Below, piece by piece: positions 3,001 to 6,000 of a stretch of 64,000 nt of DNA (position 1 is its first letter; each line of letters starts with the position of its first letter). Position numbers: made by a program. Source of the stretch: Escherichia coli (GTDB lineage: Bacteria; Pseudomonadota; Gammaproteobacteria; Enterobacterales; Enterobacteriaceae); the NCBI RefSeq assembly GCF_036507355.1, contig NZ_AP027877.1; one strand, 5' to 3'.

Positions 3001-6000
3001 ATCATCGCCCGCAATAGTGTTAATGCTAATCTCGGGCGCGGCGGTATTGACCGTGACGGTCAGTGACTGGCTGCCCGTGTTTCCGGCGCGGTCGGTGACT
3101 GAAACGTTGACAGGATAACTGCCGTCTACCAGACCACTGACAACGGAAGCCGGAACGCCCAGACTCCAGTTGCCGGAACCATCCACCACCGTGGTGTAAT
3201 CCACATTATTCAGCGTCACGGTGACGATATCGCCCGCCTGAGCGCCAGTGACCGTGCCGCTGATAATTTGCGCCTGGATATGTTCCGGCGTGTTAATGAC
3301 GTTATCGGTCGCCACCGGATTAATGGTTACCACCGGCGGCGTGGCATCCACCAGCGCCACGCGCGAAACGCTGCTCGGATTACCGGCGACATCGTTCACG
3401 CTGGCGGTGACCGTAGCGTTGCCGTCAGCCAGTGCGCCCACGTTGGCGGCGGGCACAGTCACGCTCCAGGTGCCGTCTGACTGCACGACGCCCTGATACG
3501 TCTGCCCGTTCAGCGTCACCGTCACCGTCTGCCCCGGCTGAGCGTCGGTGGTGCCGGTGATGGGCAGATCCTGCCCGCTTTCGGCGGCGTTAATGATGTT
3601 ATCGGCGGTCAGTGGATCGATGCTTAAGGCCGAGGCCTGGCTATCGACGGTAATGGTGCGGGAAGTGTTGCCGGTATTGCCGCTGAGATCCGTCACAGAA
3701 GCGGTAATCGCCACCGCGCCGTCAGGCAGATTTCCCATCGCGGCGGCAGGTACCGTCAGACTCCAGGAGCCATCGGCCTGCACGGTAGTGGTAAAACTCT
3801 GTCCAGCCAGGGTTACTGTAACGGTTTGTCCTGTCTCGGCCTGTTGAGTGCTACCGGTAAGGGTCAGTGGCGCACCTTTTTCTGCGCCACTGATAATGTC
3901 ATCGCCGGAGACGGTGTTAATGGTGATCAACGGAGAAACACCGACCAGCGTGATTGCTCGAGACGCCGCGCCAGTATTTCCTGCAGCATCTGTCACGGTG
4001 ACGAAAATCGTATTGGCTCCGCGATCCAGCGTGCGGGTTACCGCCGGGTCCAGCGCCACATTCCAGCTGCCATCTGCCAGCACGATGCCCGTCAGGACAT
4101 GAGTGCCCAATTTCACCGTTACCGTATCGCCTGGAGAAGCACCGCTGACTTGTCCGGAGATGATCTGCGCGACGGCCTGCTCGGCATTATTAAGAATATC
4201 GTCGCCCGCCACGGTATTAACACTGACCACGGGTGCTGAGGTGTCTACCGTGAAATTCGCGCTGTGGCTGGTGGCGTTCCCTGCCCGATCGCTGACACTG
4301 GCATTGACAGCGTAATTACCCTCCGCCAGTGCCTGGACTTCCGTGGCAGGCAGCGTCACTTGCCAGGTTCCGTCGCTACCGACGGTTGCTGTATGGCTTT
4401 TCCCGTTGACGGTCAGTGTTACGGTTTGCCCCGCTTCTGCATTCGACGTGCCGCTCAGTACCAGCGCGACGTTATGTTCCGCAGCACTGATGATGTTGTC
4501 CTGAGCGATGGTGTTGATGGCAAGCGTTGGCGGTTGGGTATCGACCGTTAGCAGCTGCGCGCCGGTGACCGTATTGCCTGTGGTGTCTTTCCCACTGACC
4601 AGTACCGCCTGATTCCCTTCGCCTAACGCCTGTGCATCGGCGGTCGGTACTGGTACGCTCCAGGCACCGTTAGCGCCTACGCTGGTGGTGTAGGTTTTGC
4701 CGTTAAGTGTGACGGTGAGTTCTGTTCCCTGTGCCAGATGACTACTGGTGCCAGAAAGCGTAAACCCGGCGGCCTGTTCGCTGGCGTTAATAATGTTATC
4801 GCCTGCGGTGGTGGCAACCTGCACGCTGGCCTGACTATTGTCGATGGTTAACGTTATCGAACCGGCGTCAGTGATGGTACTGCCGACAATTTGCACCACT
4901 GACCAGGTATGTTCACCTGCACTTTGCGTGGGTAACGAGACACTCCAGTGACCGTTATTGTCTACCTGAGTACTGGCAATAGTATTGCCGTTACTGTCTT
5001 TAATCTGAATAGTCGCCCCCGCCTGCCCGCTGCCGCTAAAGGTTGGCGTGGTGTCATCGGTGATGTCATTGGTGGCGAGAATGCCGCGCTGATCGCCCTG
5101 ATTATCGGTAACTAAAAATGATGGTGTGGCGTTGCCAGGCTCAGCAGGTGGCGTAGGGTTATTAATCACTTCTGTTTTCGAGTCGCCATCGCCACCGCTT
5201 GCCAGCAGTGCACCAAGCGCGCCACCACCTACCGCCGCCCCCGCCAGCCAACCCCACGGGAAGGCGCTGGTCTGAGCAACGGTATCAAGAAATGGCGCAA
5301 TGCTTTCAATCGCAGTGGTCTGGGCAGTCAGTTCTACGGGGGCTAATCCACCCGCAGCAGTATCGGCAAAGGTGATATGGGTTAGCTGTTGACCATCGGC
5401 AAACACCAGTTCCGATTGTTCAGCTGTATTCGCCGCTTGCAGGAAATAACCGTTGCAGCGGATCACCGTGCCGTCCTGCATATAGATCAGCAGGTCATTT
5501 CCTTCACGGACGTAACGCGCAACGGCAGAGGCCTGAGCATGAACCTGCACCACGGAAGGCTCATAAATAACAACCGTGACGTCGCCAGGATTAATCAGCG
5601 TTTGTTTGACGGATGTTTTACGCGAAATAACATCAATAATCAGGCTCATAATAGCATTCCTGATAAATGGCGCACATCCTTAGCGAGTCCATTTATCTAA
5701 ATAAGACAAAGGTAATCACTTAACAACGGCCCACTATTAATAATGGCAGGATTATTTCAAGTCGGGTAAGTCGTTGTATAAGCCCTGTTTAATTCCCGCT
5801 AATGGAATAAGGTTATTCACCGCAGCGGCATAATTTACGGCGGCGACCCAGCCATCATAATTGGCATTTATTTCAGCCGATTGCGCCTGAAAGACATCTT
5901 GCTCGACGGTTAATAGATCATTCAGACTGCGTTTACCCAATTTATATTCATTTTGGTACACATCTCGCGTTTTGTGCGCACTTTCGGATTGCGCTAAACC

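What the first reader, a model, noticed from the sequence alone, without database searches (positions are those of the whole stretch)
5194..5265. Gly/Ala-rich hydrophobic segment just after the N-terminal domain
Residues about 129-152 (AFPWGWLAGAAVGGGALGALLASG) form a 24-residue hydrophobic, glycine-rich stretch flanked by acidic residues (GDGDS). It is unlike the surrounding Ig-like repeats. It could be a membrane-interacting or plug element, or a flexible linker; it is unusual for a T1SS substrate, which normally stays unfolded and soluble until export.
Basis: seen in the sequence. Interest (0 to 1): 0.4.

Follow-up and report, generated by a model that had tools for sequence, protein, structure and literature searches.

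The report
Conserved greasy stopper segment in adhesin
The glycine/alanine-rich hydrophobic stretch is real and is conserved in a whole family of giant bacterial surface adhesins, where it most likely sits inside the secretion channel as part of the module that keeps the adhesin tethered to the cell; nobody appears to have tested what it does.

Summary
**Observation:** confirmed. Window 5194-5265 (minus strand) encodes aa 129-152, AFPWGWLAGAAVGGGALGALLASG, of a giant type I-secreted adhesin. This is E. coli SiiEA, of the BapA/Bap/LapF family. The gene lies beside a TolC-family gene, and in a 99.5%-identical O157 genome it is followed by ABC and HlyD-type genes.

**How unusual it is in the protein:** it is the most hydrophobic window in the ≥1882 aa visible. 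Its 27-aa run without charged or strongly polar residues is about twice the next longest.

**Conservation:** in 90 relatives at 27-61% identity, 85 have an equivalent uncharged G/A/L/V/I core.
- The core is typically 17-21 aa long.
- It lies 5-10 residues after the folded N-terminal domain.
- A poly-Gly/Ser/Asp spacer follows it.
- LapA-type retention modules lack it.

**It fails tests for a classical membrane anchor:**
- AlphaFold2 gives coil with pLDDT below 50.
- Insertion energy is unfavourable, about +3 kcal/mol.
- Both flanks are acidic.

**Best reading (inferred):** it is the part of a BapA-type retention module that occupies the secretion conduit. It probably sits in the periplasmic gate region of the TolC-like channel, just above the plug domain.

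**Main rival:** an inner-membrane-level stop-anchor.

**Verdict:** a new variant of a known kind, of moderate interest.

The parts
1..5649 (-). 5' part (at least 1882 codons) of the giant adhesin gene siiEA (BapA-related T1SS adhesin). It runs off the left end of the window.
   Evidence: Open frame from the ATG at 5649. NCBIfam NF047714 adhesin_SiiEA, E 5e-154, aa 1-230. Ca_tandemer and Big_13 repeats. Annotated as siiEA in 99.5%-identical O157 genomes.
5284..5649 (-). BapA_N 'prefix-like' domain, aa 1-122: an all-beta folded domain, the presumed plug or retention domain.
5350..5361 (-). TAAG, aa 97-100. It matches the LapG dialanine consensus but is probably not a cleavage site.
   Evidence: Found. 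It lies in a loop between strands 89-94 and 105-107 of the folded domain. An equivalent motif occurs in only 6 of 90 homologues.
5287..5304 (-). SIAPFL, aa 116-121: the E. coli version of the family-wide 'IEPLL' motif that ends the folded domain.
   Evidence: Conserved column block in the 90-sequence alignment. Short helix at 118-120 with pLDDT above 90.
5194..5265 (-). The finding, aa 129-152. The uncharged hydrophobic Gly/Ala-rich core is FPWGWLAGAAVGGGALGALL, aa 130-149, window 5203-5262.
   Evidence: outlier within the protein. (conserved composition, position and length). (coil, pLDDT below 50). (marginal insertion energy, acidic flanks).
5122..5202 (-). Gly/Asp/Pro-rich spacer, aa 150-176 (ASGGDGDSKTEVINNPTPPAEPGNATP). 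It corresponds to the 'polyglycine linker' of retention modules.
   Evidence: Low pLDDT rising to 77. In the family the 12 residues after the core are G 32%, S 18%, D 10%, N 9%. By a crude estimate, median spacer length is 27 aa and core plus spacer is 47 aa.
4840..5121 (-). First Ig-like (Big_13 / Big_6) domain, from aa 177. It begins the extracellular stalk.
   Evidence: Pfam Big_13 at aa 181-270 and Big_6 at aa 195-253. AF2 strands from aa 177 with pLDDT 86-95. Foldseek hits to SiiE BIg domains, 2yn3.
5752..7107 (-). TolC-family outer-membrane channel gene (451 aa), immediately upstream in the same orientation. It is the presumed conduit in which the segment sits.
   Evidence: ORF. Annotated as a TolC family OMP. 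Sequence matches to OprM (E 1.7e-15) and TolC (E about 1e-12) structures. The ABC and HlyD-type genes follow the adhesin gene outside the window.

Best explanation
**What it is.** The segment is the conserved, uncharged 'conduit' core of a BapA/Bap/LapF-type N-terminal retention module.

**Proposed sequence of events.**
- The adhesin is exported C-terminus first by its own T1SS: an ABC transporter, a HlyD-type adaptor and the TolC-family channel encoded next door.
- The N-terminal BapA_N domain (aa 1-122) is folded and too large to follow, so export stops with the chain threaded through the channel.
- The core, about 20 residues of only Gly, Ala, Leu, Val, Ile and Trp, starts about 8 residues after the plug. 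It therefore lies in the narrowest part of the TolC-like channel, the periplasmic gate and lower tunnel.
- A thin, charge-free chain there lets the gate close snugly around it. This would fix the register and limit leakage.
- The following Gly/Asp/Pro-rich spacer spans the rest of the roughly 140-Å channel, so the first Ig-like domain (aa 177) emerges at the cell surface.

**Shown here:** the module architecture, the conservation, the T1SS gene context, the failure to meet membrane-anchor criteria, and the length budget.

**Inferred:** the periplasmic location of the plug (by analogy with LapA and MpIBP), the position of the core in the gate, and the sealing role.
For: **Architecture.**
- Confidently folded BapA_N domain at aa 1-122.
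- Unstructured aa 126-159.
- Ig-like domain from aa 177.

**Conservation in 90 homologues at 27-61% identity.**
- Core composition is G 26%, A 26%, L 18%, V 10%, I 7.5%, with D/E/K/R near zero.
- Median core length is 19 aa, IQR 17-21.
- The core starts at about aa 131.
- It is preceded by the conserved IEPLL motif and often by Trp (43 of 90).
- It is followed by poly-G/S/D/N of very variable length.
- A fixed core beside a variable spacer argues for a specific role of the core.

**T1SS context.** TolC-family, ABC and AprE/HlyD-type genes flank the adhesin gene in E. coli. An outer-membrane channel gene and an AprE/HlyD-type adaptor gene flank the adhesin gene in five homologue loci, and an ABC transporter gene in four of them.

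- In E. coli, aa 123-176 is 54 residues, up to about 180 Å extended.
- Family median for core plus spacer is 47 aa, about 160 Å, and 43 of 59 have at least 40 aa.
- TolC is 140 Å long (established structure, Koronakis 2000).
- Only 4 of 59 have a spacer of 80 aa or more, the length needed to reach from the inner membrane to the surface.

**Literature.**
- Retention modules of T1SS adhesins are described as a plug domain plus a Gly-rich linker threaded through the TolC-like pore (bioRxiv 10.1101/198937; PMC5550230; 10.1101/2025.09.30.679566).
- The N-terminus of P. aeruginosa PA1874, swapped into LapA up to its polyglycine linker, retains LapA at the surface independently of LapG.
- I did not verify that PA1874 belongs to the BapA_N family or carries the core.

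**Against a lipid anchor.**
- The summed Hessa scale gives +3.2 kcal/mol in E. coli; the family median is +2.5, and only 3 of 90 are at or below 0.
- The N-flank has 9 K+R against 201 D+E, and the C-flank 54 against 141.
- AF2 gives coil with pLDDT below 50.
Against: - There is no direct evidence for where the plug domain or the core sits. No complex could be modelled with the tools available.
- A core length of 17-21 aa is the signature of a bilayer-spanning helix. The gate model does not explain it well.
- An aqueous, generally electronegative TolC-type lumen gives no obvious reason to select Leu, Ile and Val rather than plain Gly and Ser, which is what LapA-type modules use.
- BapA_N is made minutes before the C-terminal secretion signal. 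It could fold in the cytoplasm and stall at the ABC transporter instead.
- The spacer-length estimate rests on a crude composition rule.
- Alignment of gate residues in the cognate channel protein was ambiguous.
Confidence: 0.45

Rival explanations
1. **Inner-membrane-level stop-anchor.** BapA_N folds in the cytoplasm before secretion starts and cannot enter the ABC transporter. The TM-length hydrophobic core then comes to rest in the plane of the inner membrane, either inside the transporter's membrane domain or laterally released into lipid. The adhesin would be a natural 'stalled' T1SS substrate stapled through both membranes. A Gly-rich, helix-destabilised core could also be a substrate for intramembrane proteolysis as a release route.
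For: - Core length is 17-21 aa with no charges, and Trp lies at its N-terminal edge in 43 of 90.
- The core begins only about 8 residues after the folded domain.
- There are weak compositional matches to TM segments: NDUFA11 at E 0.06 and a thylakoid membrane protein family at E 0.075.
- The N-terminal domain is translated long before the C-terminal signal (inference).
- From my own knowledge, not checked here: folded N-terminal fusions such as eGFP-HlyA stall the HlyBD-TolC system with the fold in the cytosol.
- The PA1874 swap result is equally compatible with this model.
Against: - The flanks violate the positive-inside rule. The N-flank has 9 K+R against 201 D+E in 1155 residues.
- Insertion energy is marginal or unfavourable, family median +2.5 kcal/mol.
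- AF2 predicts no helix.
- Only about 27 residues separate the core from the first Ig-like domain. Only 4 of 59 homologues have a spacer of 80 aa or more, the length needed to span from the inner membrane to the surface. The first Ig domains would have to stay unfolded in the tunnel.
Confidence: 0.22
2. **'Slippery' anti-unfolding tract.** A Gly/Ala-rich low-complexity sequence next to a stable fold stops the export motor, or the extracellular Ca2+-folding ratchet, from gripping the chain and unfolding the plug. This makes the stall robust. It works like the Gly-Ala or Gly-rich stop signals that halt the proteasome or ClpX.
For: - G plus A make up 52% of the core, and poly-Gly follows it.
- The tract lies directly between the exported chain and the folded domain.
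- LapA-type modules also carry a Gly-rich tract at the same place.
- Substrate sequences that impair ClpX grip are the subject of a paper seen only by title and abstract in a search (PMC9531181).
Against: - This does not explain the conserved 35% Leu/Val/Ile, the Trp, the strict absence of charge or the narrow core length.
- How the T1SS generates force is not established.
- This reading is compatible with, rather than exclusive of, the best explanation.
Confidence: 0.12
3. **Passive flexible linker.** The composition simply reflects low complexity, and the segment has no specific function.
For: - AF2 gives coil with pLDDT below 50.
- Gly spacing shows no i+4 enrichment and there is no clear peak in helical hydrophobic moment.
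- The literature calls this region a flexible or polyglycine linker.
Against: - Composition and length are conserved across 27-61% identity, while the adjacent spacer varies from a few residues to about 140 aa.
- Linkers in these same proteins are polar (G/S/D/N/P).
- The core is the most hydrophobic window of the whole protein in 76 of 90.
- LapA-type modules manage without it.
Confidence: 0.1
4. **Self-association element.** The Gly/Ala-rich hydrophobic stretch, compositionally like fusion peptides or amyloid cores, mediates oligomerisation or aggregation of adhesin N-termini, or transient membrane insertion after release.
For: Only composition supports this: G/A/L/V/I-rich, with small-xxx-small patterns in 84 of 90.
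Against: - With 52% G plus A, small-xxx-small patterns are expected by chance, and Gly i+4 spacing is not enriched.
- The segment is next to the cell-proximal plug, where it would be buried in the secretion apparatus.
- No supporting data were found.
Confidence: 0.05

Closest known systems
LapA / MpIBP-type N-terminal retention module of T1SS (RTX) adhesins (Smith et al. 2018; Guo et al. 2017)
   Same: - The order of parts is the same: an N-terminal folded plug, a Gly-rich linker proposed to thread the TolC-like pore, then Ig-like extenders.
- Each has a dedicated T1SS with its own outer-membrane channel gene.
   Different: - There is no detectable sequence or fold match to the LapA or MpIBP plug.
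- There is no conserved LapG site (6 of 90).
- LapA-type modules have TAAGPxAAGGGGAxGGGHSFVMLD and no hydrophobic core, with median maximum KD 0.91 against 1.70 here.
- The MpIBP authors state that their membrane-spanning region contains no TM sequence.
BapA/Bap/LapF family prefix-like domain adhesins (Salmonella BapA, Acinetobacter Bap/BLP, P. putida LapF)
   Same: - Direct family membership: Pfam BapA_N, NCBIfam BapA prefix-like domain and SiiEA.
- Source names of homologues include the 'BapA/Bap/LapF family' and Acinetobacter, Pseudomonas, Stenotrophomonas and Franconibacter.
- The hydrophobic core is shared by 85 of 90 homologues at the KD threshold, and the rest still carry a recognisable hydrophobic stretch.
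   Different: - No structural difference was found. This is the E. coli member.
- The papers I could read on this family (PMC4647330) do not mention the hydrophobic core.
- Two key papers could not be read: FEBS J 2018 285:1812 and J Bacteriol 2018 200:e00734-17.
P. aeruginosa PA1874 N-terminus ('degenerate LapG site AAAIG' plus polyglycine linker)
   Same: - It was experimentally shown to replace LapA's retention module for surface retention, insensitive to LapG.
- Its reported 'AAAIG' followed by poly-Gly resembles the end of the core in family members, for example ...GGLAAAAGGGGGG in P0134.
   Different: - I could not retrieve the PA1874 sequence. Its membership of the BapA_N family is from my recollection, and placing AAAIG inside a hydrophobic core is an inference.
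- The role of the core itself was not tested in that study.
Single-pass transmembrane (signal-anchor) helix
   Same: - The core is about 19-20 uncharged residues, with Trp at one boundary.
- It shows weak compositional hits to TM segments.
   Different: - It is too Gly/Ala-rich: summed Hessa energy is +3.2 kcal/mol, family median +2.5.
- Both flanks are acidic.
- AF2 predicts no helix.
- It lies in a protein exported by a Sec-independent, C-terminus-first pathway.

Membership tests
BapA/Bap/LapF-type T1SS adhesin (BapA_N prefix-like domain; E. coli SiiEA) | N-terminal domain matches the family HMMs above the curated cut-offs | tested here: met
   Pfam PF22783, 70.4 bits (cut-off 27). NCBIfam NF033677, 72.3 bits (cut-off 35). 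NF047714 adhesin_SiiEA, 510 bits (cut-off 425).
BapA/Bap/LapF-type T1SS adhesin (BapA_N prefix-like domain; E. coli SiiEA) | Long array of Ig-like, Ca2+-stabilised repeats after the N-terminal region | tested here: met
   The translation shows tandem repeats of about 100 aa through aa 1882. Ca_tandemer, Big_13 and Big_6 hits.
BapA/Bap/LapF-type T1SS adhesin (BapA_N prefix-like domain; E. coli SiiEA) | Dedicated T1SS genes (outer-membrane channel, ABC transporter, HlyD/AprE-type adaptor) at the locus | tested here: met
   The TolC-family gene lies at window 5752-7107. ABC and HlyD genes lie downstream of the adhesin gene in a 99.5%-identical O157 genome. The channel and adaptor genes recur in homologue loci L003, L004, L005, L008 and L009, and the ABC gene in four of them.
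BapA/Bap/LapF-type T1SS adhesin (BapA_N prefix-like domain; E. coli SiiEA) | C-terminal T1SS secretion signal / RTX region | not testable with these tools
   The gene runs off the left end of the window. The C-terminus was not examined in the related genome.
LapA-type, LapG/LapD-regulated retention module | Sequence or fold similarity of the plug domain to LapA RM / MpIBP RIN | tested here: not met
   [not shown]
LapA-type, LapG/LapD-regulated retention module | Accessible [T/A/P]AAG cleavage site after the plug, preceded by a targeting helix and a DP motif | tested here: not met
   TAAG exists at aa 97-100, but it lies in a loop inside the folded domain. It has no DP before it (FADTAAGG). It is present in only 6 of 90 homologues. 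The site definition is from PMC13090378.
LapA-type, LapG/LapD-regulated retention module | Gly-rich linker following the plug | tested here: met
   GGDGD in E. coli. The family is 32% Gly in the 12 residues after the core. Compare the 'polyglycine linker'.
LapA-type, LapG/LapD-regulated retention module | LapG protease and LapD receptor encoded in the genome | tested here: inconclusive
   Neither is at the E. coli locus or within 10 kb in five homologue loci. However, the positive control, a LapA-type locus (L007), also showed none, so adjacency is not informative. A genome-wide search was not possible.
Canonical single-pass transmembrane anchor | About 19 or more consecutive uncharged, hydrophobic residues | tested here: met
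   The core is 20 aa in E. coli. The family median is 19, IQR 17-21.
Canonical single-pass transmembrane anchor | Hydrophobicity sufficient for bilayer insertion | tested here: not met
   The position-independent Hessa sum of the best 19-mer is +3.2 kcal/mol. The family median is +2.5, and only 3 of 90 are at or below 0. This is a simplified calculation; no TM predictor was available.
Canonical single-pass transmembrane anchor | Positive-inside charge bias of the flanks | tested here: not met
   The N-flank has 9 K+R against 201 D+E. The C-flank has 54 K+R against 141 D+E. Counts are over 77 sequences with 15 aa per flank.
Canonical single-pass transmembrane anchor | Predicted alpha-helix | tested here: not met
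   AF2 with a 40-sequence alignment gives aa 126-154 as coil with pLDDT below 50. Gly spacing shows no i+4 enrichment.

The most novel reading that the evidence does not exclude
The TM-length hydrophobic core defines a second way of retaining T1SS adhesins, distinct from the LapA mode. BapA/Bap/LapF-type adhesins would be natural stalled substrates.
- Their N-terminal domain stays on the cytoplasmic side.
- Their core rests in the inner-membrane plane of the ABC transporter.
- This leaves a permanently engaged, two-membrane-spanning tether.
- Release might occur through intramembrane proteolysis of the Gly-rich core.

Even in the outer-membrane version, the core would be a dedicated 'gate seal' that no one has described.
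Probability: 0.2. Interest if true: 0.75.

Novelty: new variant of a known kind. Interest (0 to 1): 0.42.

Why it matters
- **Medical and biological relevance.** By source annotation, this adhesin family carries the BapA/Bap/LapF name and includes Acinetobacter, Pseudomonas and Stenotrophomonas proteins. One E. coli homologue is annotated 'adhesin for cattle intestine colonization'. From my own knowledge the family includes Salmonella BapA, Acinetobacter Bap and P. putida LapF. How these proteins stay attached to the cell is understood only by analogy with LapA and MpIBP.
- **What the element offers.** A conserved, TM-length, uncharged core that LapA-type modules lack marks a concrete and easily mutated element. 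Its study could show where the plug sits, how an occupied TolC-type channel is kept sealed, and how release occurs in bacteria where LapG regulation is not apparent.
- **An open problem it bears on.** It touches the unresolved question of how an early-made, foldable N-terminal domain relates to a C-terminus-first export machine.
- **Practical use.** The element is a simple sequence marker: BapA_N, then IEPLL, then the uncharged core, then poly-Gly. It can be used to recognise the true N-termini of these often fragmented giant genes.

Tried and rejected
- **PDB sequence searches** with the N-terminus and with a 40-sequence profile found nothing meaningful. There were only weak compositional hits to NDUFA11 TM segments.
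- **The word-indexed protein search** returned almost only E. coli fragments, both with the single sequence and with the profile. It did not retrieve PA1874, so the link to the PA1874 swap experiment remains inferential.
- **LapG regulation was rejected.** TAAG is not conserved, lies inside the fold and lacks the DP motif.
- **Gene-neighbourhood absence of LapG/LapD** turned out to be uninformative, because a LapA-type control locus also lacked them.
- **The 'glycine zipper' helix-packing idea was dropped.** Gly i+4 spacing is not enriched (1.04 times expectation) and no helical peak appears in the hydrophobic moment.
- **Gate residues of the cognate TolC-family protein.** Alignment to OprM L412/D416/R419 gave N/T/Q, but acidic residues lie adjacent and the register is uncertain, so I drew no conclusion.
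- **A classical TM anchor was rejected** on insertion energy, flank charge and AF2.
- **Two key papers could not be read**: Guo et al. FEBS J 2018 and Smith et al. J Bacteriol 2018, final version. The element may be mentioned there.
- **The only paper using the name SiiEA** (PMC3256949) was not opened.
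Full report
**1. The observation**

The finding lies on the minus strand. An ORF starts at the ATG at window 5649 and stays open to the left edge of the window, giving at least 1882 codons with no stop. Window 5194-5265 encodes residues 129-152, AFPWGWLAGAAVGGGALGALLASG, followed by GDGDS, exactly as reported.

The segment is an outlier within its own protein.
- It holds the four best Kyte-Doolittle 19-residue windows, at 1.37-1.40. The protein mean is 0.10 with sd 0.45.
- The run without D/E/K/R/N/Q/H is 27 aa; the next longest is 14.
- The run made only of G/A/V/L/I/M/F/W/P is 22 aa; the next longest is 8.

**2. What the gene is**

The window is E. coli chromosome in the ybaT-glsA-copA region.
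- The N-terminus matches Pfam BapA_N (PF22783, aa 5-132, E 1.4e-19) and NCBIfam 'BapA-related adhesin SiiEA' (NF047714, aa 1-230, E 5e-154). Ca_tandemer, Big_13 and Big_6 repeats follow.
- A TolC-family gene lies 102 bp upstream in the same orientation, at 5752-7107.
- In a 99.5%-identical O157 genome the adhesin gene is followed by a T1SS ABC permease/ATPase gene, a HlyD-type adaptor gene and then cueR.
- The locus is present in 958 of 5426 complete E. coli genomes.
- One homologue is annotated 'adhesin for cattle intestine colonization'.

**3. Anatomy of the N-terminus**

I ran AlphaFold2 on aa 1-250 with a 40-sequence alignment.
- aa 1-122 form a confident all-beta domain (pLDDT mostly above 90) with 11 strands and a short helix at 118-120.
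- aa 126-159 are coil with pLDDT below 50.
- An Ig-like domain starts at aa 177.
- The domain modelled alone gives pLDDT 93.7 and pTM 0.87.

The order of parts is therefore:
- plug-like domain, aa 1-122;
- a few polar residues;
- hydrophobic core, aa 130-149 (FPWGWLAGAAVGGGALGALL);
- Gly/Asp/Pro-rich spacer, aa 150-176;
- Ig-like stalk.

The TAAG at aa 97-100 matches the LapG dialanine consensus. It lies in a loop inside the folded domain, is not preceded by the 'DP' motif that defines LapG sites, and is found in only 6 of 90 homologues. I regard it as coincidental.

**4. Conservation**

An exhaustive HMMER search of 1.84 billion cluster representatives found 148 relatives. I analysed the 90 whose match begins at the N-terminus and that are at least 185 aa long, at 27-61% identity.
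- 85 have a 19-mer with KD at or above 1.3 at the same place; 56 reach 1.6 or more.
- In 76 it is the most hydrophobic 19-mer of the entire protein, often thousands of residues long.
- Core composition is G 26%, A 26%, L 18%, V 10%, I 7.5%, with D/E/K/R essentially absent.
- Core length is tightly distributed: median 19 aa, IQR 17-21.
- A conserved 'IEPLL' motif that ends the folded domain precedes the core (SIAPFL in E. coli). Trp is close by in 43 of 90.
- After the core come poly-Gly/Ser/Asp/Asn tracts whose length varies from a few residues to about 140.

Source names place these proteins in the 'BapA/Bap/LapF family', in Enterobacterales, Pseudomonas, Acinetobacter and Stenotrophomonas. 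In five homologue loci the adhesin gene is flanked by an outer-membrane channel gene and an AprE/HlyD-type adaptor gene, and in four of them also by an ABC transporter gene.

**5. Contrast with LapA-type modules**

It retrieved 118 real Pseudomonas proteins, many named 'retention module-containing' by their sources.
- Their equivalent region reads TAAGPxAAGGGGAxGGGHSFVMLD, with no hydrophobic core.
- Median maximum KD is 0.91, against 1.70 for the BapA_N type.
- Median best Hessa sum is +9.0 kcal/mol, against +2.5.
- The MpIBP authors likewise state that their membrane-spanning region contains no TM sequence (PMC5550230).

The hydrophobic core is therefore specific to the BapA_N type.

**6. 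Is it a transmembrane helix?**

The length and the absence of charge say yes. Everything else says no, or only marginally.
- The summed Hessa scale gives +3.2 kcal/mol for E. coli. Only 3 of 90 family members are at or below 0.
- Both flanks are acidic. The N-flank has 9 K+R against 201 D+E, and the C-flank 54 against 141. This is the opposite of the positive-inside rule for an N-in anchor.
- AF2 predicts no helix.
- Gly spacing shows no i+4 enrichment.

The moderate, Gly/Ala-diluted hydrophobicity may be what allows such a stretch to exist in a cytosolic T1SS precursor without engaging SRP or Sec. This is my inference.

**7. Most likely function**

The published model for T1SS adhesins has a folded N-terminal plug retained on the periplasmic side. 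A Gly-rich linker threads through the TolC-like pore, and the extenders lie outside (10.1101/198937; PMC5550230; 10.1101/2025.09.30.679566; PMC13090378).

The N-terminus of P. aeruginosa PA1874, up to its polyglycine linker, can replace LapA's module for surface retention and is insensitive to LapG. From recollection PA1874 is a BapA_N-type protein. Its reported 'AAAIG' followed by poly-Gly resembles the end of the core seen here. I could not retrieve its sequence, so both points are unverified.

Applied to SiiEA, the core begins about 8 residues after the plug. It would therefore sit in the periplasmic gate or lower tunnel of the channel.

The length budget fits this placement.
- aa 123-176 is 54 residues, up to about 180 Å extended.
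- The family median for core plus spacer is 47 aa, about 160 Å (crude estimate).
- TolC is 140 Å long (established structure).
- Reaching the surface from the inner membrane would need about 80 or more spacer residues. Only 4 of 59 homologues have that many.

I therefore favour a role as the thin, uncharged stretch around which the channel gate can close. This would fix the register and limit leakage. My confidence is about 0.45 in that specific placement and much higher in 'conserved conduit element of the retention module'.

**8. Rivals**

- **Inner-membrane stop-anchor (0.22).** BapA_N folds in the cytoplasm, since it is made long before the C-terminal signal. The TM-length core then rests in the ABC transporter or the inner membrane. 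Core length and adjacency to the fold favour this. Flank charges, insertion energy and spacer length argue against it.
- **Slippery anti-unfolding tract (0.12).** This is compatible with the main model but does not explain the Leu, Val, Ile and Trp.
- **Passive linker (0.10).** The conservation pattern contradicts it.
- **Self-association element (0.05).** Only composition supports it.

**9. Limits**

- No complex modelling and no TM predictor were available.
- LapG/LapD neighbourhood analysis is uninformative because the control locus also lacked them.
- Alignment of gate residues in the cognate channel was ambiguous.
- Two key papers could not be read, so prior description of the core cannot be excluded. 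None of the accessible papers mentions it.

**10. Verdict**

- The gene and the general retention-module concept are known. The TM-length uncharged core, as a hallmark of the BapA/Bap/LapF-type module, appears to be an undescribed variant.
- Interest is moderate, 0.42. It would be higher if the inner-membrane or gate-seal mechanism were demonstrated.

Noticed in passing
window 5350-5361 (-), aa 97-100: TAAG exactly matches the LapG dialanine cleavage consensus. It lies in a loop of the folded BapA_N domain, lacks the DP motif, and is present in only 6 of 90 homologues. It is probably a chance match.
   Followed up: yes
window 1-5649 (-) versus L001 16468-20850: In O157 strain FDAARGOS_293, siiEA is annotated as a pseudogene truncated at about aa 1461, followed by a separate 5245-aa 'Ig-like' CDS. 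In the window the frame stays open for at least 1882 aa. The gene may be intact here, or the break may lie elsewhere.
   Followed up: no
window 5752-7107 (-), TolC-family protein, C-terminal helix region (aa ~395-420): Positions aligned to the OprM periplasmic gate residues L412/D416/R419 are N, T or S, and Q in this protein and in two other BapA-type channel proteins. Acidic residues lie next to them and the register is uncertain.
   Followed up: partly
[not shown]
   Followed up: partly
window 5158-5181 (-), aa 157-164 SKTEVINN: A 'K-T-x-V-[IV]-D/N-N-T' motif directly after the poly-Gly/Asp tract is conserved in the enterobacterial subfamily (for example ETKTKVVDNT, ESKTEVIDNT). AF2 gives it low to moderate confidence. 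Its function is unknown.
   Followed up: no
window 7108-7444: A 337-bp intergenic region lies between ybaT and the TolC-family gene. It is presumably the promoter or regulatory region of the adhesin and T1SS operon. It was not analysed.
   Followed up: no
L003 32733-36041: The 6001-aa homologue locus (record CP035738.1; organism not identified) carries two EAL-domain genes (one GerE-EAL) just downstream of the T1SS genes. This hints at c-di-GMP-linked regulation without LapD or LapG.
   Followed up: no
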